A stretch of 23,456 bases of DNA from the UHGV virus genome UHGV-0795592; one strand, written 5' to 3'. Below the pieces are notes generated by a model. It did no database searches, was not told where the DNA came from, and worked only from the letters and a program-made list of their open reading frames with translations. A program made the translations under genes and the position numbers. Below, one piece after another: positions 8,532 to 19,404 of the stretch (its first letter is position 1; the number at the start of each line of letters is the position of its first letter). Source of the stretch: a virus.

Positions 8532-9719
8532 ATGGCAGTAGGTGAAATTCAAATTAGTGCCTTGCCTCAAGCAGCCTTACCAATTGACCTTAGTGATATC
8601 TTCCATCTTAAGCAGGGTATTGAGGATAAGAGATGTACTCTTGAGCAATTACTTGCTCCACACTCAAGCCTAAAAAATAACCCTCATGGTGTTACTAAGA
8701 CACAAATTGGTTTAGATAATGTTATTAATGCTCTTCAGTTAGTTGCTGCAAATAACTTATCAGATATTGTTAATGTAGCTGAGGCAAGAGCAAATCTACA
8801 GATTATGTCTTCAGAAGAGGTTAATAACCTTGTTCAGCAACATATTAAGGACAAGAGTAACCCACACAATACAACTAAGGCACAGGTTGGTTTAAGTAAT
8901 GTCCAGAACTGGACAACATCTAATCTGTATAACGAAGATGCAGATAAGTATGCTACAGCAAGAGCAGTAAATAACTTGTACAAGGCTGTTCAGGCTTCTT
9001 ATCCAGTAGGTACTATCCATCTTTCTATGAACTCTGCAAATCCTTCTACATACTTAATTTGTGGAGGTACTTGGGAGTTAGTTTCAAAAGGTAGGGCATT
9101 GGTTGGTTATGACTCTGATACAAGGCCAGCAGGTTCTGTATTTGGTGCTTCAACTGTCACTTTGTCAGTTAATAATATGCCTCAACACTCACACTCTGTG
9201 TCTCTCAGTGGTGGTGGTCACACTCATAATGCAACTGTTTCAATCTCAGCTTTTGACTATGGAACTAAGACTACCAACTCTTTTGACTATGGAACAAAGA
9301 CCACTAACACAACTGGTAACCACAATCACGTTGGTAGTGGGTCAACAAGTGCTGCTGGTGCTCACAACCACAGATTGACTTATGAAGCAGGTGGTGGTCT
9401 GTCGGAAAGACCTGCAATGGTTTGGTCTACAAGGAATGACCAATCGTGGTACTCAGCAGATGCTGTCTGCGAAGTCGCTGGTTCGCACACCCACTCTTTT
9501 AGCGTTACCACTAACACAACCGGTAACCACAATCACACAGTGGGTATTGGTGCTCATAGCCATACAGTTGGTATTGGTTCACATACACACAACGGTACTG
9601 TGACAGTTTCTTCTTCTGAGCATACACATAGCGGAAACACTAACAGTGTTGGTGGTGGACAAGCTTTCAACATTGAGCAGCCATCATTCGTACTGTATGT
9701 ATGGCAGAGAACAGCTTAA
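8532..9719 (+). CDS. tail fibre protein (receptor-binding), short paralogue
   Basis: 395 aa, Shine-Dalgarno AGGAG. Two copies of a fibre-repeat-like motif (NPH..TK.Q.GL.NV.N). Collar-like segment (YPVGTIHLSMNSANPSTYLICGGTWEL). C-terminal His-x-His array (QHSHS, GGHTHN, GNHNH, GAHNH, GSHTHS, GAHSHTVGIGSHTHN, EHTHS). Confidence 0.8.
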   Translation: MAVGEIQISALPQAALPIDLSDIFHLKQGIEDKRCTLEQLLAPHSSLKNNPHGVTKTQIGLDNVINALQLVAANNLSDIVNVAEARANLQIMSSEEVNNLVQQHIKDKSNPHNTTKAQVGLSNVQNWTTSNLYNEDADKYATARAVNNLYKAVQASYPVGTIHLSMNSANPSTYLICGGTWELVSKGRALVGYDSDTRPAGSVFGASTVTLSVNNMPQHSHSVSLSGGGHTHNATVSISAFDYGTKTTNSFDYGTKTTNTTGNHNHVGSGSTSAAGAHNHRLTYEAGGGLSERPAMVWSTRNDQSWYSADAVCEVAGSHTHSFSVTTNTTGNHNHTVGIGAHSHTVGIGSHTHNGTVTVSSSEHTHSGNTNSVGGGQAFNIEQPSFVLYVWQRTA

Positions 9720-9765: not shown

Positions 9766-12150
9766 ATGGCAGATTACAAGTTGAGTGAATTAAACTCAAT
9801 CGACACAATCCGTTCAGATGACCTTCTTCATGTCAGAGTTAAAAAGAGACCTGAAATGCTGGGTGATGAAGACCGTCGAATGACCTATCAAGACTTCTTA
9901 GCATCTTTTAAACTTGAGAGATTTGTTCAGATTGCTGGTAGCACTATGGCAGGTGACTTAGGAATTGTTAAGTTACTTTATGGTGGTAAGACAGTATTTG
10001 ACCCAACAGGCTCTTCTGAGATTAATATCGGAGATGTTTTAAAGTCTTTTAAAATCAACTCAAATGGTCTTAAGCTAACTATTGCAGATGCTTCAAGGTC
10101 AGCAACTGTTTACCATACTCTGAATAAACCAAGTCCTAATGAACTTGGGATGAGAACTAATGAAGAGAATGATGCAAGATATGCAAGATTAGCTGTAAAT
10201 AACACATTTAGAGGTACTCAAGCTATCCTCTCTGATAATGAAGCTCTTATTGTTAAGAACATTACACAAGGAATGCCGCTATATATTCGTGGTCAAGATG
10301 CAGACGGTACTAACAGGTGGTATCTAGGTAATGATAATAAAGGCACAGACAACCTTGTGTTAAAGAATGTCAAGACTGACGTTTCAATTGCTATTTTGGG
10401 AAATTTAGTAACAGTCAACAGGACTCTTCAAATTGCTGGTCAAGTTCAGCCATCAAGTTTTGCTAACTTGGATGCTAGATATTTTACTCAAACAGAAGCT
10501 AACCAGAGATTTGCACAGTTAGCTGGTAATAACACATTTAGTGGCTCTAATATTTTCACTAATTTTGTTGTTAAGAAGAATGCTAATGCTATTACTCTGC
10601 AAAATGTAGATACAACTGCTGCTTTGTATATCCGAGCAAGAAAATCAGATGGAACTAATAAGTGGTACATTGGTAATGACGGTGATGAGAACATTGTAAA
10701 CATCTATAACTATTTAGCAAGAACACAAATCTCACTAGGTAACACCATTACCATGAGCAGAACAGTCCAAATTGGTGGTCAAGTTCAACCTTCAGATTGG
10801 GCTAACATTGACTCTAGATACATCCCAGCCGCAACTTTGAGTAACCTACCTAAACTTAATGTTGCTAACACATTTGTGAATGTGCAAACTATTGTATCAA
10901 ATAATGAAGGCGTAGTATTAAGGAACTTAACACAGGGGCAGCCACAATATATCCGTGGTGTTGATACTGCGAATGTATCTAGATGGTGGGTAGGTGTGGG
11001 TGGCACAAATTCTACTGATGTAGCCTTAAACAATAGTTTCTCTGGCACTCAAATTACTCTTGGGACTTCAGTGATTAAGGCTAATAAGAATCTAACCATT
11101 ACTGGTCAAGTTCAGCCATCTGATTGGTCTAACTTAGATGCTAGATACTTTGTTAAGACTCAGTTATTAAATCAATCCTTGATGACTGTATCTGTAGATA
11201 ATCTTGAAAACCCTTCAGCATTTAATCTTGGGTATTCAGGTTTTGTCAGAAACAACAGTGTGACTAGTGGTCTGAAAGAGTTGGCAATTCATGTTGCTCA
11301 CTCTAATAAGTCTGCTGCACATGCAAGGGGTATCTCTTTTGTATACGGTTCAAATGGTTTGGCAACATTCACCTATGCCTATGACAAAAATGGTGACTAT
11401 GCCGGAGAGGCACAGCTTTACACAACTGATTTTAAACCAACCCCTTCAGATATCGGTGCATACACTAAAGCTGAGACTGACCAGAAGATTGCACAGGCAG
11501 TAAGTGACTCTACAGACCTTAATAAAATCTACCCAGTTGGTATTGTAACGTGGTTTAACAGTAATGTTAACCCTAATACAGCACTTCCTGGTCTAACTTG
11601 GACATACCTGAACAATGGTGTTGGTAGAACTATCAGAATCGCAGCAGCAAATGGTTCAGATGTTGCTACAACTGGTGGTTCAGATTCTGTAACGTTAGCT
11701 GTTGGTAACTTACCATCACACACTCACAGTTTCTCTGCTACCACTTCATCTTTTGATTATGGTACGAAGGGTACTAATAGCACTGGTGGTCATACTCACT
11801 CTGTAAGTGGTACAACAAGTGCTGCTGGTAACCACGCTCACCACTTAGGTCTGCTATTGGTTAATGGTGGTGATGCTCAGTACGGATATACCACTATTGG
11901 TAACAATAAGACAAGAACTCTTGACTGGCTTGACAGAACTGATAACAAGTTCCCTAACACTAACACAACTGGTAACCATACACACACATGGTCTGGTACT
12001 ACAAGTGGTGCTGGTAACCATTCCCACTCTGTAGGCATTGGTGCTCACAGCCACACAGTTAGTGGTAATACTGGTAGTACAGGTTCTGGTTCGGCATTTA
12101 GTGTTACTAACCAGTTCTACAAGTTAATGGCTTGGGTAAGAACTGCTTAA
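9766..12150 (+). CDS. tail fibre protein (receptor-binding), long paralogue
   Basis: 794 aa, Shine-Dalgarno AGAGGAA. Three tandem repeats of about 105 aa. Collar-like segment ([27 protein letters not shown]). C-terminal His-x-His array (PSHTHS, GGHTHS, GNHAHH, GNHTHT, GNHSHS, GAHSHT) and the same FDYGTK motif as the 395-aa fibre. Confidence 0.8.
10186..11152 (+). repeat. three in-frame tandem repeats (about 105 codons each) inside the long tail-fibre gene
   Basis: Each protein repeat has the form NNTF.G…N.TQG.P.YIRG.D..GTN.WY.GND…RTLQI.GQVQPS.(F/W).N.D.RY. Approximate repeat starts are 10186, 10510 and 10849. Confidence 0.6.
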
Positions 12151-12156
12151 TCCCTT

Positions 12157-12211
12157 GTTGACTGATTGTTAAGATGGTGTTAATATTTTTTATGGGTATT
12201 CTCACCATCTT
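12157..12211 (+). promoter_or_regulatory. sigma70-like promoter with a 9-bp inverted repeat bracketing the -10
   Basis: -35 TTGACT (12157-12162), 17-bp spacer, -10 TAATAT (12181-12186). Perfect inverted repeat AAGATGGTG (12171-12179) / CACCATCTT (12203-12211). Shine-Dalgarno GAGGTGA before the ATG at 12230. Confidence 0.45.
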
Positions 12212-12229
12212 GGCTGATGAGGTGATTAA

Positions 12230-12427
12230 ATGCCTACAATCCTAGCAATTCTTCTAAAAAATCTAGGTAGCTTCTTCTGGAAACTCATTTTATCCCTTCT
12301 AAGTGAATACATGATTGAGAAAGTGTTCTTTAGGCTTGCAAGATACCTTGCGAGTAAAACAGACACACCTATTGATGATGAGTTCGTAGATAACTTAGAA
12401 AAAGCTTTTAAGGGGGAGAATAAATGA
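12230..12427 (+). CDS. small hydrophobic protein (lysis- or exclusion-associated candidate)
   Basis: 65 aa with an N-terminal hydrophobic/amphipathic segment (ILAILLKNLGSFFWKLILSLL) and a charged C-terminus. Stop overlaps the next ATG (ATGA). Confidence 0.4.
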   Translation: MPTILAILLKNLGSFFWKLILSLLSEYMIEKVFFRLARYLASKTDTPIDDEFVDNLEKAFKGENK

Positions 12428-12795
12428 AGTGGCTAGAGGAAGCTTTTAAAAATAATATTGGTGCAATTGTAGTTGGTATTTTTAGTGTTATTGGTATGTA
12501 TACCACCATGCAAGTCTCGGATGGTAAGCAAGAAGTGTCTATCACAACAAAGTTACAGCAGTTAGATAATTATTCCAAAAGTAATTATTCAGCTATTCGT
12601 GATTTACAGTCTGATATGAGGCTGCTTCAGCTAGGGATGGAGAACCAGAAAGTCCAGTTAGAGAATGTTAAGGGTGAGAACGCAAAACTTACTAAGACTC
12701 TTGATAAATTCTCTGATAGTGTGAACAATCTGGCTCAATCAGTATCAGCCCTCCAAGCTATTACTGAAAAGAACACAAAGAATACTGAAAAGTAA
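12424..12795 (+). CDS. single-pass membrane protein with a coiled-coil C-terminal domain (holin/spanin-like candidate)
   Basis: 123 aa, Shine-Dalgarno GGGGGAG. N-terminal transmembrane segment (IGAIVVGIFSVIGMYTTM) followed by a heptad-like, Q/L/K-rich domain. Located just downstream of the tail fibres. Confidence 0.45.
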   Translation: MKWLEEAFKNNIGAIVVGIFSVIGMYTTMQVSDGKQEVSITTKLQQLDNYSKSNYSAIRDLQSDMRLLQLGMENQKVQLENVKGENAKLTKTLDKFSDSVNNLAQSVSALQAITEKNTKNTEK

Positions 12796-12800
12796 AGTTT

Positions 12801-12835
12801 AAGGCTCCTTTTTACGGGAGCCTTTTTTGTTTTAT
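12801..12835 (+). terminator. intrinsic terminator at the convergence point of the two modules
   Basis: Stem AAGGCTCC (12801-12808), loop of 8 nt, stem GGAGCCTT (12817-12824), then TTTTTGTTTT. It lies between the stop at 12795 (plus) and the thyA stop at 12832-12834 (minus). Confidence 0.6.
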
Positions 12836-13731
12836 TTACCTACTGACAAAGGTGCTTCAATCTTTCCTGCATGTTGGTAATTGTTAATACCACCGATAAA
12901 GTCACTTGCAGTGAGGTGTTTTAAGTCACTTAAAGTGTTAAGTGGGATACCAATCTCAAAAGTTGGTGCATGGAACTCTTCATTGTTCATCAGTTCATAA
13001 ACCTGCTTCATATGATTCTGATAAATCTGAGTATCCCCAAAGACACCTATCAAGTACCGTGGAGTGTATCCAGTCATCTTACAAAGAACTTCCAGAATAA
13101 AACCATAAGATGCAATATTAAACGGAAGTCCTAAAAAGGTGTCTACTGAACGCTGATACCATTGTAAGTCAACTTCACCCTCGTTAGTAATATAAATCTG
13201 AAACAGAACATGACAAGGTGCTAGAGCCATTGAGTTTGCTGCAATATCTGCTGCATTCCAAGCATTAACAAGCATGTAACGGTCTGTGATATCACCCTTC
13301 ATCTTCGTTACTAAGGTTTCTAACTGGTCTACAACACAACCATTATGACCTTCAAAGTTTCTCCACTGAACTCCGTAGATTCTCCCACCTGCATCCTCTA
13401 ACCAGTCTTGTTCAGAAGAATAATTAGAACTCAACCAGCGTTTAAAATCATCTGACCAGATAGTCCAGCGTTCCCCATCATTTTCACCCCAAGTACGGTA
13501 ACGAAGTTCACCAAGTTTATTCTCACCATTCAGGAACCATAAAGCTTCCCCAATAACTTGCCGTGTAAACACCTGTTTAGATGTTAAGAGTGGGAAACCA
13601 GTACGCATATCAAAACGAAATTGTGGTGGAGCAAATGCAGAGATAACATCTCCAGTTCGTGTAGTACGCAGTTCACCAACGGATAAAACATGGTTCAGGA
13701 TATTTTTGTAACTCAAATCAGCTTGTGACAT
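12832..13731 (-). CDS. thyA: thymidylate synthase
   Basis: 299 aa with canonical ThyA motifs: RTGTG-like N-terminus (RTTRTGD), catalytic ALAPCH, and DTFLGLPFNIASY. ATG start. Confidence 0.95.
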   Translation of the reverse strand: MSQADLSYKNILNHVLSVGELRTTRTGDVISAFAPPQFRFDMRTGFPLLTSKQVFTRQVIGEALWFLNGENKLGELRYRTWGENDGERWTIWSDDFKRWLSSNYSSEQDWLEDAGGRIYGVQWRNFEGHNGCVVDQLETLVTKMKGDITDRYMLVNAWNAADIAANSMALAPCHVLFQIYITNEGEVDLQWYQRSVDTFLGLPFNIASYGFILEVLCKMTGYTPRYLIGVFGDTQIYQNHMKQVYELMNNEEFHAPTFEIGIPLNTLSDLKHLTASDFIGGINNYQHAGKIEAPLSVGK

Positions 13732-13732
13732 A

Positions 13733-14278
13733 TCAAAAGTGGCCTTTTACTTGTGGAACATAGATTTCAAAGGTTGCTTTACCATCATCTGAGGGTCTTG
13801 ACTGCACCTTTGCAAATACACGGTTATCATACAGTTTATCGAAGAAGTTTTCAAAAGGTAAATACACAGTGACCTCTTCAGTAACTTTATGGAAAACTGT
13901 ATGGAACACTACATCAGCATACGGTAAAGCATTAACAAGAACACCTGCACCACCAATTACAAAGACATCTTCATCAATAGAGCTATCAAGATACTTCAAA
14001 AATGCTCCAAATGACTCTTTAGTGGCCTTAGCATACATTATATCATCTTTGCCAAAGTCTATGCCTAAATATGGTACAGAATTTGTTAAGATTAGGTTTG
14101 CACGTTCTGGTAAAGGTTTACTCCCCAGAGTCTTAAAAGTCTCATTACCCATCACTACTAAGTTGTTTTTAGTGAGCCTCTTAAACTCTTGCATATCCTG
14201 TTTATGTCGAGGCCACGGCATACCAGTTGGAGTACCAAATTCACCATTTTCACCACTTGCGAAGATTAATTTAATCAT
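13733..14278 (-). CDS. folA: dihydrofolate reductase
   Basis: 181 aa with DHFR hallmarks: GMPW near the N-terminus, VVMGNETFKTLGSKPLPERANLILT, and VIGGAGV. Its stop lies 1 nt before the thyA ATG (TGA-T-ATG). Confidence 0.9.
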   Translation of the reverse strand: MIKLIFASGENGEFGTPTGMPWPRHKQDMQEFKRLTKNNLVVMGNETFKTLGSKPLPERANLILTNSVPYLGIDFGKDDIMYAKATKESFGAFLKYLDSSIDEDVFVIGGAGVLVNALPYADVVFHTVFHKVTEEVTVYLPFENFFDKLYDNRVFAKVQSRPSDDGKATFEIYVPQVKGHF

Positions 14279-14535
14279 TTTATAAACCCTTTATTAATGA
14301 ACCAGTTGATAACACTCTTCACAGCTTTATTGCTGTGGTAGATTAAGTGTGGTGTAGGTTGGTATGAACCATAAGCCCAGAATGATAGATGCTCACCGCA
14401 ACCAACACATGTAGTACTCTCTTCAGCTATGTTACCATTAACAATCACATGAACTTCACCTTGCAAGTCTGTACATCCACAATGTGGGCATCGGATAGGT
14501 GTCCCATCAGACTCATAACAGTGTTCAATTTTCAT
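14275..14535 (-). CDS. zinc-ribbon protein, unknown function
   Basis: 86 aa with CPHCGC … CVGCGEH (two CxxC pairs). ATG with Shine-Dalgarno GAGGT. Stop overlaps the DHFR start (ATGA). Confidence 0.5.
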   Translation of the reverse strand: MKIEHCYESDGTPIRCPHCGCTDLQGEVHVIVNGNIAEESTTCVGCGEHLSFWAYGSYQPTPHLIYHSNKAVKSVINWFINKGFIK

Positions 14536-15051
14536 TTATTTAACCTCAAAAACTGGTTCAAGAACCAATATAAAGTCTACACAATCATCTTCTTCATCCA
14601 GAATACCATCAAAGTTCTTAGGAACGAAGTCGAAGAGGCTCATAACAAAGCAGTCAGAAGTAACTCTAATAGCGCCACCCATATTCTCTACAGTCAACAC
14701 TGTGCGGCTTTCTTTTACCTCTCTCAGAAGATTACTCACAAAGTCATCTAAGAAGTACTTCATCAGTGACTTAAAGCCTTTAGGGTAATCTGTACCAGAG
14801 TATGTTTCAATCTGAGGTACAAGCTTAACATTTATACTAGTCTTTGTTAAGAACACAGGAGAGAACATGCTATCAGGTAACTTACAAACAGTCTTTCCAG
14901 TACCTTCATGTTCAATCTCAACAAAACCAGCTTCGTCACCACATGTAACTATTTTAAAAGATGCTTCATTCTCATACTGTGAAGCCATAAACTTTTTAAG
15001 CATCACTTTAAGGAAGTCTGCATGAGTATCTTGTAAGTAGATATCAATCAT
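14536..15051 (-). CDS. hypothetical protein with an acidic C-terminus
   Basis: 171 aa, ATG with Shine-Dalgarno AGGTGA. C-terminus rich in D/E (DGILDEEDDCVDF). Tightly packed in the operon. Confidence 0.5.
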   Translation of the reverse strand: MIDIYLQDTHADFLKVMLKKFMASQYENEASFKIVTCGDEAGFVEIEHEGTGKTVCKLPDSMFSPVFLTKTSINVKLVPQIETYSGTDYPKGFKSLMKYFLDDFVSNLLREVKESRTVLTVENMGGAIRVTSDCFVMSLFDFVPKNFDGILDEEDDCVDFILVLEPVFEVK

Positions 15052-15064
15052 AGTTAATCACCTA

Positions 15065-15424
15065 TTATGGGAACAGACACTTAATGTCGTCGTTTTTGAA
15101 AACAAAACTTGTGTAGTTGTGACCATCAACATCCAACCAAACAGCCTGAACATCTACACCATCAAGGTTCTGGTAAAGCTCTTTGATGAAGTGGTCTTTC
15201 ACACTCTGGCTACTAGTTGTTTCCAGCTTAATGTTCGAGATTGCTGAGCCTACAGCCATATAGCCCATGACACGTTTCTTCTCAGTATGCTTAATCTTAC
15301 CATCTTTGTAAGCCATAATGAGATTGGAGAGAATCTTCACACCATAATACTTTTCAAGGTGAGTGGGTACACCATAAAAACCTAATGCGAAGTTTTCAGA
15401 GTGGATAATGTTTTCACGTTTCAT
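15065..15424 (-). CDS. hypothetical protein
   Basis: 119 aa, ATG start, 1-nt gap to the upstream gene stop. No recognisable motif. Confidence 0.45.
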   Translation of the reverse strand: MKRENIIHSENFALGFYGVPTHLEKYYGVKILSNLIMAYKDGKIKHTEKKRVMGYMAVGSAISNIKLETTSSQSVKDHFIKELYQNLDGVDVQAVWLDVDGHNYTSFVFKNDDIKCLFP

Positions 15425-15425
15425 A

Positions 15426-15725
15426 TTAATCTGCCAACCTTAAATTAAAATTAACACCAAATTTTTCACATACTTCCAACATATACTCAAGGGAAACATT
15501 CCCAGTGAGGTGGATTATGTTGGATACACGAGCCTGAGAGATACCACAAATTTTAGCAACTTGCTCTTGGGAAAGACCTCTGGATTTAATCTCTCTCTTA
15601 AAACGATGTGCAACGAAATCTCTCATTTCGTCTACATCCATTGGACAAATATAACTCTCCATTTCAGCCTCTCTATCAGCCTCCCAATCATCTTGTGGGG
15701 CATAAGGGTCAAAAGCTCCATTCAT
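15426..15725 (-). CDS. helix-turn-helix DNA-binding protein (XRE-like), putative regulator
   Basis: C-terminal HTH signature LSQEQVAKICGISQARVSNI; acidic N-terminal half. Start re-called to ATG at 15725 (MNGAFDPY…) with a purine-rich Shine-Dalgarno; the track start at 15755 is TTG. Confidence 0.6.
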   Translation of the reverse strand: MNGAFDPYAPQDDWEADREAEMESYICPMDVDEMRDFVAHRFKREIKSRGLSQEQVAKICGISQARVSNIIHLTGNVSLEYMLEVCEKFGVNFNLRLAD

Positions 15726-15930
15726 CTTTCTTCTTCCGTTTGCGTGAAGTGTCAATCAATGAATCTATGTTTGTAGCCCTAACCTTTTCACGTTCATCGT
15801 TAAGATAATCATCAAGAGCCTTTTCAATCTGTGAATCATCTTGACAGATAACTGTAAAGACTGTAAAGCCATCTGTATCATCAATTATCTTACCATAACC
15901 GCTTCTGGGATGTAACTTTTTAAGAGCCAT
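15709..15930 (-). CDS. hypothetical small protein
   Basis: 73 aa, ATG start, basic C-terminal tail (SRKRKKKDEW). Overlaps the HTH gene start by about 17 nt. Confidence 0.4.
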   Translation of the reverse strand: MALKKLHPRSGYGKIIDDTDGFTVFTVICQDDSQIEKALDDYLNDEREKVRATNIDSLIDTSRKRKKKDEWSF

Positions 15931-15931
15931 A

Positions 15932-16315
15932 TCAAATACCTGTGCAGCTTCTGTTTTCTAAGAAATACTCAACACCATACATAGCTTTTTGCATCAAATC
16001 TTCTTTAAACTGGATGCGATGGTTGAGCATAGATTGTACGTCAATGTCCTCATGGTGCTTCTCTTTAATATTTGCAGATTGCAGGAAATACTCTGCAAGA
16101 ACGCGATATTGATAGTCAGTTACCTTATCAGTCATCTCTGTTAAAGACTCTTCAGAGATTGGTTTAAGTAGCTCGCCATTAGCTAGAGCAACACCTTTAA
16201 CAATCTGACAAGTGTCTTCTGGAACACCTGATAAGTCCACATTTGGAAGTTCTGTTGCATTGACTGGTAAATTCATTGCCATAACCATTGCAGCAGCTAA
16301 TAAAATCTTTTTCAT
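15932..16315 (-). CDS. Sec-secreted (periplasmic) protein of unknown function
   Basis: 127 aa with a classic signal peptide, MKKILLAAAMVMAMNLPVNA then TELP. ATG with Shine-Dalgarno GAGGT. First gene downstream of repeat region A and its promoter. Confidence 0.55.
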   Translation of the reverse strand: MKKILLAAAMVMAMNLPVNATELPNVDLSGVPEDTCQIVKGVALANGELLKPISEESLTEMTDKVTDYQYRVLAEYFLQSANIKEKHHEDIDVQSMLNHRIQFKEDLMQKAMYGVEYFLENRSCTGI

Positions 16316-16359
16316 AATGACCTCAAAGTTATATTAAATTTTGTATTACATTGAGTGTA

Positions 16360-16407
16360 AAAATAAGCTATAACACCTGACTTGTCAACAGATTTTATAG
16401 CTTATTT
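16360..16407 (-). promoter_or_regulatory. sigma70-like promoter embedded in a 13-bp perfect inverted repeat
   Basis: On the minus strand: -35 TTGACA (plus 16383-16388), 17-bp spacer, -10 TATTTT (plus 16360-16365). Inverted repeat arms AAATAAGCTATAA (16361-16373) and TTATAGCTTATTT (16395-16407) flank the -35. Confidence 0.4.
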
Positions 16408-16850
16408 GGCAGATTTTTTATAAGGCTACTGCCATCCTTCCATACCTTACCGAACATCACCCTACTGAACCCGACCCTACCTCACCCGACCCAACCGAAC
16501 CGTACCGAGCACAGACTTATTAAAAGACCCTGTTTAAAGACCTTTTAAAAAGGTAAGTCTCATTTTAATGTAGTTGAGACTAACTACCCGCACCGAACCT
16601 CACATGACCTGACCGCACCCGACCTCACCGCGCCATGCCATAACATACCTTACTTAAAAACCCTTTTCAAAGACTCTTAAGTGATGTAATCGAATTTTAA
16701 TGTAGCTCCGATTAACTACCCATACTTTACCTAACCCGACCGCACCTAACCCGACCTGACCCTACCAGACCCCACCTAGCTAAACCTTATTAAAAGACCC
16801 TGTTTAAAGACCTTTTAAAAAGGAGCCTCCGAAGAGGCTACCTAGTCAAC
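16401..16850. repeat. modular non-coding repeat region A: three (ACCNN)n pentamer arrays, AT-rich motifs and hairpins
   Basis: Arrays at 16444-16508, 16592-16656 and 16724-16788, with AC at every fifth base on the plus strand. Motif M1 (ttattaaaagaccctgtttaaagaccttttaaaaagg) at 16517-16553 and identically at 16787-16823. Motif M2 at 16653-16686. Hairpins at 16556-16581 and 16687-16714. No ORF in the track. Confidence 0.75.
16824..16845 (-). terminator. candidate intrinsic terminator after the 146-aa gene
   Basis: Hairpin AGCCTC-CGAA-GAGGCT (16824-16839). Read on the minus strand it is followed by CCTTTTTAAAAGG. It lies directly 3' of the gene ending at 16851. Confidence 0.4.
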
Positions 16851-17291
16851 TTAGAATGGTTTTCTACGTTGCTTGTTAATATTAGCCTTCATAGCAGCTA
16901 AGTGGTTTTGCTGTTCAATCAGCCGTGAACGTTCTTGATGACTAAGTGCCATAGTGTTCACATTCTCAATCGCTTGAGTGGCTTGCTTTAAAGCTCGACC
17001 AATCTTGCCAGACATTTTACGTTTTGCAATAGTTGCTTGATGCTTAGGTTCAACCACACGATAACCAACACCCATTGAAGCAACCAGATAAATCTTCTCT
17101 TCTTTAAGAAGCTTCTCAATAAACTTCTCAAGTCGGTTTAGACGTGTAAGCGCATAAGCCTTCATTTCATCTTCGTACTTAACAATGTCACCTTGATAAG
17201 TTGGCTTCACAATACCTAAGAAGGTATCCATCTCAGAGTGTGATACAGTGTCACCGTAACTAAACTTTGCTGCTAATGCTTTTGTGTTCAT
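16851..17291 (-). CDS. hypothetical protein with a basic C-terminus
   Basis: 146 aa, ATG with Shine-Dalgarno GAAGGT. C-terminal K/R-rich tail (NINKQRRKPF). No recognisable motif. Confidence 0.5.
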   Translation of the reverse strand: MNTKALAAKFSYGDTVSHSEMDTFLGIVKPTYQGDIVKYEDEMKAYALTRLNRLEKFIEKLLKEEKIYLVASMGVGYRVVEPKHQATIAKRKMSGKIGRALKQATQAIENVNTMALSHQERSRLIEQQNHLAAMKANINKQRRKPF

Positions 17292-17293
17292 AA

Positions 17294-17899
<606 letters not shown>

Positions 17900-17950
17900 T
17901 TAGTTGCTTGTTAAGTTGTTTGTAAAGAACCCTCAACAGAAGACTCTTTA

Positions 17951-18280
17951 GAAACTTGGTAGATTTTTAACGTGGCTGCTACCATCCACCCATACTTTAC
18001 CTAACCAAACCGAACCTCACACAACCAGACCGAGCCGCACCCCGCCTTATTAAAAGACCCTCTTAAAGACCTTTTAAAAAGGTAAGTCTCATTTTAATGT
18101 AGCTGAGACTAACTACCCATACCCTACTTTACCTTACCGTACAGTACTTTACCCGACCACACCGGACAATACTTAACCCTACCTCACCCGACCGGACATC
18201 ACTTAAAAACCCTTTTCAAAAACTCTTAAGTGATGCTGGTGAGTACCCGTTGGTTTATGCTGCTCAGTATACTCACCAAA
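17951..18280. repeat. modular non-coding repeat region B, homologous to region A: two (ACCNN)n arrays, M1, M2 and hairpins
   Basis: Arrays at 17994-18043 and 18121-18205. M1 variant at 18047-18082 (2-3 differences). Hairpin at 18085-18110 identical to region A but for one loop base. M2 at 18202-18235 (1 mismatch). Extra 8-bp-stem hairpin at 18238-18277. Confidence 0.75.
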
Positions 18281-18300
18281 TTTTCTATGTCAACAACTTT

Positions 18301-19404
18301 TTATTCGTAGTCTCGAATAACGAGACCGACAGGGAACTGTAAAGAACCCTTACGAGTCATCTTCTGGAACTGAACCGTCAAAGGTTTCCCGATAAACTCT
18401 TCAGGATGTTCAGCAAGATACTGTTTCTTCTCATGAGTAGTCTTCCATGAGACATCTACAAAGACGTTAGGAAGAGTCTCTACAACGAACTTGCCATGAC
18501 CACGCTTATCAGTCTTTACACCAGTCACTTTAAACTCTTCAGTGTGCATCTTCTTGTGCTTAATCAAGAAGTATGAACGGTGACAACACTCATAGAAGGA
18601 GTCTTCAGAGATTGAACGGTACATTGCACCTTCAAACTTAGCTTCAACCCACTTATCATGAGCTTCATCGAACTCTTCCCAAGAATTTACACGACGTGAC
18701 TTAACAGGGACAACTTTACAGCCATCTCTAAAGCCATTCAATGGTGAAGTCTCAATAATATCTCTACGCTCAGGCCACGTCTTAGTACTGTCACAGATAT
18801 CATACCAGTAAAACTTGAGCAAGTGTCTGTCAGGATTGTCTTCATTTTTAATCATGGAGACGATATCTTCTAAGTCCCACCCATGAGCATAAATCTCTCC
18901 ATCAAATTCATCAACATCTTTGTGGAGCCTTAACATTGCCATAATGTCAGGTATTAGTTCAGTAGGGATTTTGTAAACAGTATTCTCACGAGAATATGCT
19001 GTAAATACACTGCCAATACTCAAGTGCCTTGAAATTCTACAACGTACACCATCCAGTTTTGGTTGAGCATCAGCAGGGAATTTCAGATACTTTGCATGAC
19101 TAACCTTTGCAGCATCATGAGCAAGCTGTACACCTACCTTTTCAGTATTCTGTGCAGACTCTTTTGTGTAAGCATAACCTTTGCGGTCAACTTGCTTTTT
19201 ATACTTAGCAGCAACTTCGAAGAGAGCTTGCTGTTCAGCGTTACGCTCATTCTTTTTACCGATGTTTTTAGGTTCTGCTGTATACTCTTCAAACATCATC
19301 TTGCCATTCTCTTTACCGTAGGTTGTAATAACTTTGTCACCTACAGCAACACACGACCAGACGTTAAAAGAGCCGTCTTTATTTTGTTTGTACAGTATTG
19401 TCAT
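18301..19404 (-). CDS. ATP-dependent DNA ligase
   Basis: Adenylation motif I KLDGVR (…PADAQPKLDGVRCRI…) and downstream FLIKHKK-type lysine motif. Start re-called to ATG at 19404 (MTILYKQNKDG…) with Shine-Dalgarno AGAGGA; about 367 aa. Confidence 0.85.
   Translation of the reverse strand: MTILYKQNKDGSFNVWSCVAVGDKVITTYGKENGKMMFEEYTAEPKNIGKKNERNAEQQALFEVAAKYKKQVDRKGYAYTKESAQNTEKVGVQLAHDAAKVSHAKYLKFPADAQPKLDGVRCRISRHLSIGSVFTAYSRENTVYKIPTELIPDIMAMLRLHKDVDEFDGEIYAHGWDLEDIVSMIKNEDNPDRHLLKFYWYDICDSTKTWPERRDIIETSPLNGFRDGCKVVPVKSRRVNSWEEFDEAHDKWVEAKFEGAMYRSISEDSFYECCHRSYFLIKHKKMHTEEFKVTGVKTDKRGHGKFVVETLPNVFVDVSWKTTHEKKQYLAEHPEEFIGKPLTVQFQKMTRKGSLQFPVGLVIRDYE

What the first reader, a model, noticed from the sequence alone, without database searches (positions are those of the whole stretch)
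14275..15930. Block of five small unknown genes, including an HTH regulator, upstream of DHFR and thymidylate synthase
Between the secreted-protein gene and folA lie translationally coupled ORFs with no recognisable enzymatic motifs: a 73-aa basic-tailed protein, an HTH protein with an acidic N-terminal half, a 119-aa protein, a 171-aa protein with a strongly acidic C-terminus, and a CxxC…CxxC zinc ribbon. Acidic small proteins and zinc ribbons are recurrent in phage anti-restriction and host-takeover factors. The HTH protein is a candidate binder of the palindromic operators at 16361-16407 and 12171-12211.
Basis: inference. Interest (0 to 1): 0.45.

Follow-up and report, generated by a model that had tools for sequence, protein, structure and literature searches.

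The report
Felix O1-type accessory gene block
The five small genes are real, conserved genes of Felix O1-like phages, already annotated in over 200 genomes as four hypothetical proteins plus one helix-turn-helix regulator; only the zinc-ribbon gene has any published functional hint, so the finding is largely ordinary.

Summary
The window comes from a Felixounavirus (Felix O1-like myovirus). The five minus-strand ORFs at 14275-15930 exist as described. They are the orthologues of Felix O1 ORF82-86 and Bas63 genes 32-36, 95-96% identical at the DNA level to more than 200 deposited phages. All are under strong purifying selection (dN/dS 0.02-0.06 within the genus). With a signal-peptide protein upstream and DHFR and thymidylate synthase downstream, they form a gap-free eight-gene array. 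The array has a sigma70-like promoter inside a 47-bp palindrome at one end and a bidirectional terminator at the other.

The HTH protein is an Xre/Cro-type protein, most likely 99 aa from an ATG, with an invariant acidic N-terminal extension. The 73-, 119- and 171-aa proteins are confined to Ounavirinae and match no known family or fold.

The zinc ribbon belongs to a widespread uncharacterised phage family and resembles Lar/RalR only below family thresholds. A published Bas63 knockout screen found its orthologue less needed in DH10B.

The two palindromes are real and conserved but share no half-site. Several other promoters in these genomes sit in unrelated dyads. Some phages that carry the HTH gene lack the 16361-16407 palindrome, so the operator idea is only partly consistent and cannot be tested here.

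Novelty: already known. Interest is low.

The parts
16360..16407 (-). Sigma70-like promoter embedded in a 47-bp palindrome (16361-16407), immediately upstream of the operon. The -35 TTGACA lies at 16388-16383, the spacer is 17 nt, and the -10 TATTTT lies at 16365-16360. The arms read AAATAAGCTATAAAATCTG / CAGGTGTTATAGCTTATTT.
   Evidence: This is the best promoter-like site in 12000-17400 (10 of 12 matches) and the best inverted repeat in the window. About 89 nt around it are identical in the window, Felix O1, HMD-P10, Moogle and SUSP2. It occurs at one place in nearly all of 231 phage records (240 places in all). As RNA the hairpin folds at -17.8 kcal/mol (z -4.2) and is followed by UUUUU.
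15932..16315 (-). First gene of the array: a 127-aa protein with an N-terminal signal-peptide-like segment (Felix O1 ORF87, Bas63 g37). It lies outside the finding's coordinates.
   Evidence: ORF. phrog_4332, function unknown. Orthologues. The signal peptide is read from the sequence (MKKILLAAAMVMAMNLPVNA) and was not tested with a predictor.
15709..15930 (-). 73-aa protein with a conserved basic C-terminal tail (Felix O1 ORF86, Bas63 g36).
   Evidence: phrog_4473, function unknown. No Pfam family reaches its cut-off and there is no significant PDB match. 54-64% identical in Mooglevirus and Suspvirus, with ...VRAT.xDSLIDTSRKRxKKDE almost invariant. dN/dS 0.047.
15426..15725 (-). Xre/Cro-type HTH protein, 99 aa from the ATG (109 aa if the TTG at 15755 is used). 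It has an invariant acidic N-terminal extension of about 40 aa (Felix O1 ORF85, Bas63 g35).
   Evidence: Pfam HTH_3 at 6e-10, 39.4 bits against a cut-off of 23. phrog_1373, transcriptional regulator. The N-terminal motif FDPYAPQDxWEADxExEM..YI..MD..EM is invariant across three genera. Found only in Felixounavirus, Mooglevirus and Suspvirus. dN/dS 0.057.
15065..15424 (-). 119-aa protein confined to Ounavirinae (Felix O1 ORF84, Bas63 g34).
   Evidence: phrog_4116, function unknown. No Pfam, NCBIfam, PADLOC or PDB match. Homologues come only from Ounavirinae-type contigs. The AF2 model is poor (pLDDT 45.6). dN/dS 0.022. In Felix O1 the transcript is maximal at 25 min (PMC3185647).
14536..15051 (-). 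171-aa acidic protein confined to Ounavirinae (Felix O1 ORF83, Bas63 g33).
14275..14535 (-). 86-aa CxxC...CxxC zinc-ribbon protein. Its stop overlaps the DHFR start (ATGA). Orthologue of Felix O1 ORF82 and Bas63 g32.
   Evidence: phrog_2993. An exhaustive phmmer search gave 205 cluster representatives at E<=1e-3, sharing the motif Y..DG.P..C..C-x~20-E....C..C.....YWAYG..DP. NCBIfam ECs_2282 scores 24.6 bits against a cut-off of 37. Lar scores 17.9 against 39.6 (NCBIfam) and 13.9 against 28.6 (Pfam). hhalign against RalR/Lar gives probability 77%. Bas63 g32 is conditionally essential (PMC11482910).
13733..14278 (-). Dihydrofolate reductase (frd), the seventh gene of the array.
   Evidence: Pfam DHFR_1 at 1.9e-22. 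Annotated as frd in Felix O1.
12832..13731 (-). Thymidylate synthase (td), the last gene of the array.
   Evidence: Pfam Thymidylat_synt at 6.7e-73. Annotated as td in Felix O1.
12801..12824 (.). GC-rich hairpin between the convergent late (+) and td (-) transcription units, probably a bidirectional intrinsic terminator.
   Evidence: Terminator-like site on the + strand. Listed as t79/t80 on both strands in the Felix O1 paper (PMC3185647). 100% identical in SUSP2 and ESh22.
12158..12211 (+). Second palindrome named in the finding. A sigma70-like promoter (TTGACT-N17-TAATAT, with TG upstream of the -10) has its -10 in the left arm of the dyad AAGATGGTGTTAATA / TATTCTCACCATCTT. It lies upstream of the 65-aa and 123-aa genes and is not part of the operon.
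   Evidence: The arms are invariant and the loop is variable in six genomes from three genera. Present in 258 phage records. The RNA fold is -21.5 kcal/mol, z -4.7, with no U-run after it.

Best explanation
The five ORFs are genuine, conserved accessory genes of Felix O1-type phages (Felix O1 ORF82-86). They sit in the middle of one gap-free eight-gene array: exported 127-aa protein, 73-aa protein, HTH, 119-aa, 171-aa, zinc ribbon, DHFR, thymidylate synthase. The array most likely has its own host-RNA-polymerase promoter at 16388-16360 and ends at the bidirectional terminator at 12801-12824.

Shown: the genes are real, under purifying selection, syntenic across three genera, and free of any recognisable enzyme domain. 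In Felix O1, ORF83, 84, 87 and 80 give transcripts that peak in the middle of infection.

Inferred mechanism: the operon-encoded Xre-type HTH protein binds as a dimer to the palindrome whose axis lies on the -35 hexamer. This feeds back negatively on the operon, following the logic of anti-CRISPR-associated (Aca) repressors and restriction-modification controller proteins. Its invariant acidic N-terminal extension contacts a protein partner.

The zinc ribbon is a Lar-like small protein that helps the phage in hosts with intact restriction or type IV systems. The 73-, 119- and 171-aa proteins are lineage-specific host-interaction or accessory factors whose targets cannot be named from sequence.
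For: Orthology and synteny: 95-96% DNA identity to more than 200 Felixounavirus records, and the same gene order in Felix O1, HMD-P10, BPS15Q2, Bas63, Moogle, Michonne, ESh22 and SUSP2.

Coding status: dN/dS is 0.02-0.06 within the genus and 0.10-0.44 between genera.

Operon anatomy: the junctions overlap or abut. The best promoter-like site in the region is at 16388-16360. An intrinsic terminator at 16839-16824 lies upstream of that promoter, and a bidirectional terminator follows td.

Expression: Felix O1 genes 96-80 are described as one transcription region, and RT-PCR shows ORF80, 83, 84 and 87 maximal at 25 min and ORF81 at 10 min (PMC3185647).

HTH: Pfam HTH_3 above its cut-off, weak matches to R-M controller-protein models (PADLOC, 7e-5), and a recognition helix ISQ(A/S)RVSNI conserved across genera. 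It is the only gene annotated as a transcription regulator in the BPS15Q2 record.

Palindrome: about 89 nt including both arms are identical between genera whose coding DNA is 72-76% identical, while the surrounding module is 89-91% identical. The 12-nt core of the arm occurs at a single site in the BPS15Q2 genome, as expected of an autoregulatory site.

Zinc ribbon: similarity to Lar/RalR over the CxxC...CxxC core, and conditional essentiality of Bas63 gene 32 (PMC11482910; gene numbering checked).
Against: No binding data exist. Michonne and ESh22 have HTH orthologues with the same recognition helix, but their operon promoter is a different one with a different dyad. The HTH protein therefore does not depend on this palindrome.

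At least five promoters in a complete relative are embedded in dyads with unrelated arm sequences, which points to a general architectural feature rather than a specific operator.

The 19-nt arms are long for one HTH dimer. The palindrome also folds as a stable RNA hairpin followed by UUUUU, so it may act as a terminator or insulator for upstream transcripts. The arms never vary, so neither covariation nor co-variation with the protein can be assessed. Part of the palindrome's conservation may reflect recent exchange of the 16307-18303 module, which is 89-91% identical between genera.

Similarity to Lar is below every curated threshold. Bas63 is sensitive to several RM systems. The PhageMaP observation on gene 32 is a pooled-screen result that was not clonally validated in the text I read. 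The -10 hexamer, TATTTT, is weak.
Confidence: 0.5

Rival explanations
1. The palindromes are not operators. They are structural punctuation of transcription units. As RNA hairpins they terminate, pause or stabilise the 3' ends of upstream transcripts, and the next promoter is packed into or beside the same sequence. On this view the HTH protein acts somewhere else.
For: All three promoter dyads in the window fold well as RNA (-15.3 to -21.5 kcal/mol; z -2.9 to -4.7). The 16361-16407 hairpin is followed by UUUUU. The BPS15Q2 dyad at 10841-10872 (AAAGGGTATTGACAATGTGTTTAATACCCTTT) carries a TTGACA in its stem-loop, and the same sequence is listed as a terminator pair in the Felix O1 paper. The arms differ at every promoter, which suits hairpins better than one repressor. 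Several other promoters are immediately followed by GC-rich terminators.
Against: The 12171-12211 and 18237-18278 hairpins have no U-run. The 16361-16407 stem is AT-rich. A canonical terminator already lies upstream at 16839-16824 in phages that carry the cassette. No compensatory changes are available to show selection on pairing.
Confidence: 0.3
2. The HTH protein is the phage's general temporal regulator. It represses or activates other promoters rather than autoregulating, for example the promoter of the lysis-region genes carrying the 12171-12211 dyad. Its acidic N-terminus contacts host RNA polymerase.
For: The Felix O1 paper states that no phage RNA polymerase or polymerase modifier is evident and that temporal control is unexplained. 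This is the only gene annotated as a regulator in BPS15Q2. The 12171-12211 dyad spans the -10 and the predicted start site. Its arms are invariant in all six HTH-bearing genomes examined, including Michonne and ESh22, while its loop varies. It occurs in 258 records from the same clade as the HTH gene, which occurs in 261. The N-terminal acidic motif is more conserved than the DNA-binding domain.
Against: The co-occurrence is trivial because both features are clade-wide. No recurring half-site was found among promoters. No experimental data exist.
Confidence: 0.2
3. The block is an anti-defence island. Several of the small acidic or zinc-binding proteins directly inhibit restriction or other host immunity.
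For: The zinc ribbon resembles Lar and shows a host-dependent fitness effect. An HTH gene within an operon of small ORFan genes behind a palindromic promoter resembles acr-aca operons (this comparison rests on established knowledge and was not tested here). The 171-aa protein is acidic (pI 4.5), diverges fastest (33-42% identity between genera) and is split in SUSP2, as accessory genes often are.
Against: The PhageMaP text names genes 40, 77, 79, 80, 84, 85, 123 and 130 as counters or triggers against a defence panel, and none of genes 33-36. Bas63 is sensitive to several RM systems. dN/dS of 0.02-0.06 shows no arms-race signature within the genus. No structural or sequence match to any known inhibitor was found.
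Confidence: 0.15
4. The small proteins serve nucleotide metabolism. They would be assembly or regulatory partners of DHFR, thymidylate synthase or the ribonucleotide reductases, by analogy with the T4 dNTP-synthesising complex.
For: The zinc ribbon's stop overlaps the DHFR start in all genera examined. In Hafnia phage SarahDanielle and phage LPML1 a zinc-ribbon homologue sits between nrdD and nrdG.
Against: In Yersinia phage TG1 and Klebsiella phage phi_270 the homologues lie among tRNAs or small early ORFs with no metabolic neighbours. No enzyme or cofactor motif is present in any of the five proteins.
Confidence: 0.08

Closest known systems
Felix O1 ORF82-86 (NP_944930, 944932, 944933, 944934, 944937) and Bas63/JohannRWettstein genes bas63_0032-0036
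   Same: Direct orthologues. They have the same order, strand and junctions, about 95% DNA identity and 93-99% protein identity.
   Different: In this window the 73-aa ORF runs 3 codons longer. Unlike Felix O1, the window also carries a two-gene cassette (146 aa and 200 aa) with GT-rich repeats between the ligase gene and the operon promoter.
Lar/RalR of the E. coli Rac prophage (restriction alleviation protein; also described as the DNase toxin of a type I toxin-antitoxin pair, PMC4041452)
   Same: A small prophage/phage protein with a CPxCGC...CxxC zinc ribbon. hhalign gives probability 77% over 33 columns. A host-dependent fitness effect was reported for the Bas63 orthologue.
   Different: Below the Pfam and NCBIfam thresholds. 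The window protein has the extra conserved motifs YxxDGxP and YWAYGxxDP and a 25-aa C-terminal tail absent from RalR. No RalA-like antisense RNA was found, though I did not search for one specifically. Activity is untested.
ECs_2282 family putative zinc-binding proteins (NCBIfam NF047912)
   Same: Best-scoring named family for the zinc ribbon (1.8e-5, 24.6 bits). Also small and also of unknown function.
   Different: The score is below the 37-bit cut-off, and only 8 of 60 family members match it at all.
Aca-type repressors of anti-CRISPR operons and controller (C) proteins of restriction-modification systems
   Same: A small Xre-type HTH protein encoded inside the operon it could control, and a promoter embedded in an inverted repeat centred on the -35. 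There are weak hits to PADLOC controller-protein models.
   Different: The HTH gene is third of eight genes, not last. Its 40-aa acidic N-terminal extension is not a feature of those proteins. The repeat arms are 19 nt, much longer than C-boxes or Aca operators. Orthologues exist without this repeat. No binding is shown.
Xre/Cro/cI-type HTH_3 domain proteins (PF01381)
   Same: The domain match is above the gathering score, at residues 53-103 of the 109-aa form.
   Different: There is no C-terminal oligomerisation or peptidase domain as in cI-type repressors. The phage is virulent, so the 'repressor' annotation in some records does not imply lysogeny control.

Membership tests
Felixounavirus ORF82-86 orthologous block | High sequence identity and conserved gene order between ORF87 and frd/td | tested here: met
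   95-96% DNA identity over 2.1-2.4 kb in more than 200 records. Identical order in Felix O1, HMD-P10, BPS15Q2 and Bas63.
Pfam HTH_3 (PF01381), Xre/Cro-type DNA-binding domain | Score at or above the gathering threshold (23 bits) | tested here: met
   39.4 bits, E 6.1e-10, profile positions 2-52 of 55.
Lar family restriction alleviation protein (Pfam PF14354, NCBIfam TIGR03655) | Score at or above the curated cut-offs (28.6 and 39.6 bits) | tested here: not met
   13.9 bits and 17.9 bits. Only 1 of 60 (Pfam) and 5 of 60 (NCBIfam) members of the wider zinc-ribbon family match, all weakly.
Lar family restriction alleviation protein | Shared zinc-ribbon core with RalR/Lar in a profile comparison | tested here: inconclusive
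   hhalign of family profile A11 against E. coli RalR: probability 77%, 33 aligned columns covering both CxxC pairs.
Lar family restriction alleviation protein | Alleviates restriction in vivo | not testable with these tools
   The only evidence is indirect: Bas63 gene 32 is less essential in DH10B (PMC11482910). Bas63 is nevertheless RM-sensitive (PMC8594841).
ECs_2282 family zinc-binding protein (NF047912) | Score at or above the 37-bit cut-off | tested here: not met
   24.6 bits.
Aca / C-protein type autoregulator | HTH gene inside an operon whose promoter overlaps an inverted repeat | tested here: met
   The dyad axis of 16361-16407 lies on the -35 at 16388-16383, and the HTH gene is the third gene downstream.
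Aca / C-protein type autoregulator | Regulator and operator travel together in relatives | tested here: not met
   Michonne and ESh22 keep the HTH gene (64-70% identity, same recognition helix) but lack the palindrome. The HTH gene is in 261 records and the palindrome in 231.
Aca / C-protein type autoregulator | Sequence-specific binding and repression of its own promoter | not testable with these tools
   Needs EMSA or footprinting and reporter assays.
Type II toxin-antitoxin module (HigA/HipB/PezA-type antitoxin with an adjacent toxin) | Antitoxin family score above the cut-off and a recognisable toxin next to it | tested here: not met
   HipB, HigA and PezA models score 20-23 bits against cut-offs of 48-290. 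The adjacent 73-aa and 119-aa proteins match no toxin family.
Nucleoside triphosphate hydrolase (annotation of the 119-aa orthologue in HMD-P10, JLBYU28 and ESCO50) | P-loop/Walker motifs or a match to an NTPase family | tested here: not met
   No Pfam, NCBIfam, PHROG-function or PDB match. No GxxxxGK[ST] in the sequence. The AF2 model is too poor to judge the fold.
Sliding-clamp or Roadblock/LC7-like fold (171-aa protein) | Significant structural superposition | tested here: not met

The most novel reading that the evidence does not exclude
The HTH protein, with its invariant acidic N-terminal motif, is the only annotated regulator in a phage group whose temporal control is unexplained. It could be the missing middle/late switch of Felix O1-type phages, acting on the unusual promoter-embedded dyads through a partner bound by its acidic extension. 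In addition, the 171-aa protein has a confident predicted structure but no fold match, and could be a new kind of host-directed factor.
Probability: 0.12. Interest if true: 0.55.

Novelty: already known. Interest (0 to 1): 0.2.

Why it matters
Felix O1-type phages are used for Salmonella typing and are candidates for biocontrol and therapy, yet how they time their gene expression is unknown and most of their small genes have no assigned function. This block holds their only annotated transcription regulator and a zinc-ribbon gene with a host-dependent fitness effect. It is therefore a reasonable place to look for regulation and host-range determinants. The genes themselves have long been deposited and annotated, and nothing found here suggests a new class of system.

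Tried and rejected
- **Family and structure searches.** I searched the 73-, 119- and 171-aa proteins against Pfam, NCBIfam, PHROGs, PADLOC and PDB sequences. Only PHROG families of unknown function matched.
- **Homologue searches.** Word-indexed searches for the 171- and 119-aa proteins returned only relatives at 33% identity or more from phage-sized contigs or named Ounavirinae phages, so no distant relatives could inform function.
- **119-aa structure.** The AF2 model had pLDDT 45.6 and was unusable, so I ran no fold search on it.
- **Zinc-ribbon profile against the PDB.** Only spurious C2H2 zinc-finger repeat matches appeared.
- **HTH against the PDB.** The top hit was a designed repeat protein, which I judged spurious.
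- **Shared operator half-site.** The arms of each palindrome occur nowhere else in the window, and the 16361-16407 arm core nowhere else in the BPS15Q2 genome. A TGGTGAG motif shared by the 12171-12211 and 18237-18278 dyads sits at different spacings, so I did not pursue it.
- **RNA families and tRNAs.** Rfam gave only two weak matches, both far below their gathering scores, in 12000-18400, and ARAGORN found no tRNA in the window.
- **Toxin-antitoxin reading of the 73-aa/HTH pair.** Rejected; see the membership test.
- **Literature.** I found no transcriptome, promoter map or binding study for Felixounavirus. HIDEN-SEQ does not cover this genus. The PhageMaP supplementary fitness tables are not held, so scores for genes 33-37 could not be read.


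Full report
**Identity of the window.** The region 14000-16400 is 95-96% identical over its full length to more than 200 deposited phage genomes. Nearly all are Felixounavirus, including Salmonella phage Felix O1, BPS15Q2 and E. coli phage JohannRWettstein/Bas63. In Felix O1 the same stretch is annotated as ORF82-86: four hypothetical proteins and one 'transcriptional regulator'. It lies between ORF87 and frd/td. The finding therefore concerns a long-deposited, repeatedly annotated gene block.

**Check of the observation.** All five ORFs are present on the minus strand at the stated coordinates, and the physico-chemical descriptions are correct. The gene junctions are overlapping or abutting: TGAtATG, a 17-nt overlap, TAAtATG, a 13-nt spacer with AGGTGA, TAAATG, ATGA and TGAtATG.

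Two details need correction:
- The HTH gene is listed mechanically from a TTG (109 aa). Its orthologues in seven other genomes are annotated from the ATG at window 15725 and align from the first residue, so 99 aa is the more likely product.
- The 73-aa ORF is three codons longer than its orthologues, because their TGA stop is TGG here.

The ORFs are clearly real genes. Among five Felixounaviruses dN/dS is 0.02-0.06 for each. Against Mooglevirus and Suspvirus, where synonymous sites are saturated, it is 0.10-0.44. The Felix O1 genome paper reports RT-PCR transcripts for ORF83, 84, 87 and 80 peaking at 25 min and ORF81 at 10 min, and treats genes 96-80 as one transcription region (PMC3185647).

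**Anatomy of the surroundings.** The five genes are the middle of an eight-gene, gap-free array:

| Order | Gene | Window coordinates |
|---|---|---|
| 1 | 127-aa protein, signal-peptide-like N-terminus | 15932-16315 |
| 2-6 | the five ORFs of the finding | 14275-15930 |
| 7 | DHFR | 13733-14278 |
| 8 | thymidylate synthase | 12832-13731 |

DHFR and thymidylate synthase are identified. Upstream lies the best sigma70-like promoter of the region (TTGACA-N17-TATTTT, 16388-16360). It sits inside the best inverted repeat of the window (16361-16407, 19-nt arms), and the dyad axis falls on the -35 hexamer. Further upstream an intrinsic terminator (16839-16824) closes the preceding gene. Downstream of td is a GC-rich hairpin (12801-12824) that the Felix O1 paper lists as a terminator on both strands.

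The same gene order is found in Mooglevirus (Moogle, Michonne, ESh22) and Suspvirus (SUSP2). These genera have one extra gene of about 167 aa inserted after the 119-aa gene. The true homologue of the 171-aa gene there is only 33-42% identical, and in SUSP2 it is split into two ORFs.

**The five proteins.**
- **HTH protein.** It matches Pfam HTH_3 above threshold and PHROG 1373, 'transcriptional regulator'. It gives the usual weak hits to antitoxin and R-M controller-protein models, all below their cut-offs. Its first 40 or so residues are acidic and are invariant across three genera at FDPYAPQDxWEADxExEM..YI..MD..EM. They are better conserved than the DNA-binding domain, which argues for a conserved partner. 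The protein occurs only in the Felixounavirus, Mooglevirus and Suspvirus clade.
- **73-aa protein.** It matches only a PHROG of unknown function, and its C-terminal ...DSLIDTSRKRxKKDE is invariant.
- **119-aa protein.** It matches only an unknown PHROG, and its homologues are all Ounavirinae-like. Its AlphaFold model was unusable (pLDDT 45.6). My searches give no support for the 'nucleoside triphosphate hydrolase' label it carries in a few GenBank records.
- **Zinc ribbon.** An exhaustive HMMER search shows that its first 60 or so residues belong to a broad family of small proteins, with 205 cluster representatives. The family signature is Y..DG.P..C..C-x~20-E....C..C.....YWAYG..DP. Members occur in many unrelated virulent phages and are always annotated as hypothetical. 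No Pfam family covers it. ECs_2282 and Lar models match only below their cut-offs. A profile comparison with E. coli RalR/Lar gives 77% probability over the 33-residue CxxC...CxxC core.

**Published functional evidence.** The PhageMaP preprint made a genome-wide knockout library of Bas63, and its gene numbers equal the GenBank locus tags. I checked this with g65 (glutaredoxin), g79/g80 (NAD+ enzymes) and g84/g85 (rIIA/B). The preprint states that gene 32, the orthologue of the zinc ribbon at 96% protein identity, resembles Lar and is less essential in DH10B than in BW25113, MG1655 and S17-1. It suggests that the gene helps evade type IV restriction (PMC11482910).

Genes 33-36 are not mentioned among the counters or triggers found against a defence-system panel. 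The supplementary scores were not available. The BASEL paper describes Bas63 as remarkably sensitive to several RM systems (PMC8594841). Lar/RalR itself has also been characterised as a DNase toxin (PMC4041452). The anti-restriction reading therefore has modest support for one gene and none for the other four.

**The palindromes and the HTH-operator idea.** Both palindromes are real and conserved.
- *16361-16407.* About 89 nt around it are identical in the window, Felix O1, HMD-P10, Moogle and SUSP2. Coding DNA between these genera is only 72-76% identical. The palindrome belongs, however, to a mosaic module (16307-18303) that is 89-91% identical between genera and is missing from Michonne and ESh22.
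- *Michonne and ESh22.* In these two phages the operon is preceded by a different promoter, AAAGTTGTTGACAT..., with a different dyad. In the window that same promoter lies just downstream of the ligase gene, around 18291-18237. The HTH gene thus persists without the 16361-16407 palindrome (261 against 231 records).
- *12171-12211.* This dyad has invariant arms and a variable loop in all six genomes compared, and it occurs in 258 records. Its arms (AAGATGGTG...) are unrelated to those of 16361-16407 (AAATAAGCTATAA...).
- *Copy number.* Each arm sequence occurs only at its own site in the window. The 12-nt core of the 16361-16407 arm likewise occurs only at its own site in the complete BPS15Q2 genome.
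- *Other promoters.* In BPS15Q2 at least five near-consensus promoters are embedded in dyads with mutually unrelated arms. One of them is listed as a terminator pair in the Felix O1 paper.
- *RNA folding.* All three window dyads fold well as RNA, and the 16361-16407 hairpin is followed by UUUUU.

Taken together, promoter-embedded dyads look like a general feature of these genomes. Autoregulation at 16361-16407 remains possible by analogy with Aca and C-protein circuits, but the evidence is mixed. Computation cannot decide whether the dyads act as operators, terminators or both.

**Verdict.** The block is already known as annotated ORFs of unknown function in more than 250 phage genomes. I found no evidence of a new kind of system. 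The best-supported account is a middle-phase accessory operon of Felix O1-type phages, possibly autoregulated by its own Xre-type protein, that delivers lineage-specific small proteins ahead of the dTMP-synthesis enzymes.

Four things remain unexplained: the target of the HTH protein, the partner of its acidic N-terminus, the role of the promoter dyads, and the functions of the 73-, 119- and 171-aa proteins.

Noticed in passing
window 16443-16823 and 17973-18182: GT-rich repeat units of about 110-130 nt lie on both sides of a two-gene cassette (146 aa at 16851-17291 and 200 aa at 17294-17896, both PHROGs of unknown function). Each unit has a run of GGTnnGGT-like motifs, a short hairpin, and TTTTAAAAGGTCTTTAA.... 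There are three units on one side and about two on the other. Rfam gives no match.
   Followed up: partly
window 16307-18303; L001 5817-6098; L005, L006: The cassette with its repeats and the palindromic promoter forms a mosaic module. It is 89-91% identical to Moogle and SUSP2, whereas flanking genes are 72-76% identical. The cassette ORFs are absent from Felix O1, which keeps both promoters and one GT-rich unit. The whole module is absent from Michonne and ESh22. This pattern suggests gain or loss by recombination between the flanking repeats.
   Followed up: partly
window 18237-18291 (minus strand); L007+L008 (BPS15Q2) 9348-9382, 10841-10872, 39964-40004, 44154-40200, 45927-45968: Near-consensus sigma70-type promoters in these phages are repeatedly embedded in, or overlapped by, dyads whose arms differ at every site. 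Some other promoters are followed directly by GC-rich terminator hairpins (BPS15Q2 6011 on the minus strand and 74080 on the plus strand). The purpose is unknown.
   Followed up: partly
L003 3287-3790, L004 3286-3786, L005 3293-3796, L006 3287-3790: Mooglevirus and Suspvirus carry an extra gene of about 167 aa between the 119-aa gene and the homologue of the 171-aa gene. It is only 17-21% identical to the window's 171-aa protein, so it is probably unrelated. In SUSP2 the true 171-aa homologue is split into 100-aa and 68-aa ORFs.
   Followed up: partly
L002 2291-2650 (HMD-P10); records JLBYU28, ESCO50: Orthologues of the 119-aa protein are annotated as 'nucleoside triphosphate hydrolase' in a few GenBank records. 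No family, motif or structure search here supports that name.
   Followed up: yes
L012 2438-2692 (Hafnia phage SarahDanielle), L013 2438-2692 (phage LPML1): In these other Ounavirinae, a homologue of the zinc-ribbon protein sits between the anaerobic ribonucleotide reductase genes nrdD and nrdG instead of next to DHFR. LPML1 is labelled a Listeria phage but is classified in Ounavirinae and is nearly collinear with the Hafnia phage here.
   Followed up: no
records GU169904.1 (Staphylococcus phage SA1), MG065668.1 (Campylobacter phage A126): These records, named for unrelated hosts, contain Felixounavirus sequence 94-96% identical to this block. They are probably chimeric or mislabelled deposits.
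   Followed up: no
window 15606-15725 (residues 1-40 of the 99-aa HTH protein): The acidic N-terminal extension of the HTH protein (FDPYAPQDxWEADxExEM..YI..MD..EM) is invariant across three genera. It is more conserved than the DNA-binding domain.
   Followed up: partly
window 12230-12427 and 12424-12795 (plus strand): The two small genes behind the 12158 promoter and its dyad are annotated in relatives as a hypothetical protein and a holin or putative holin. Here they match only PHROGs of unknown function, and the 123-aa protein also gives a weak DivIC-like coiled-coil hit.
   Followed up: no
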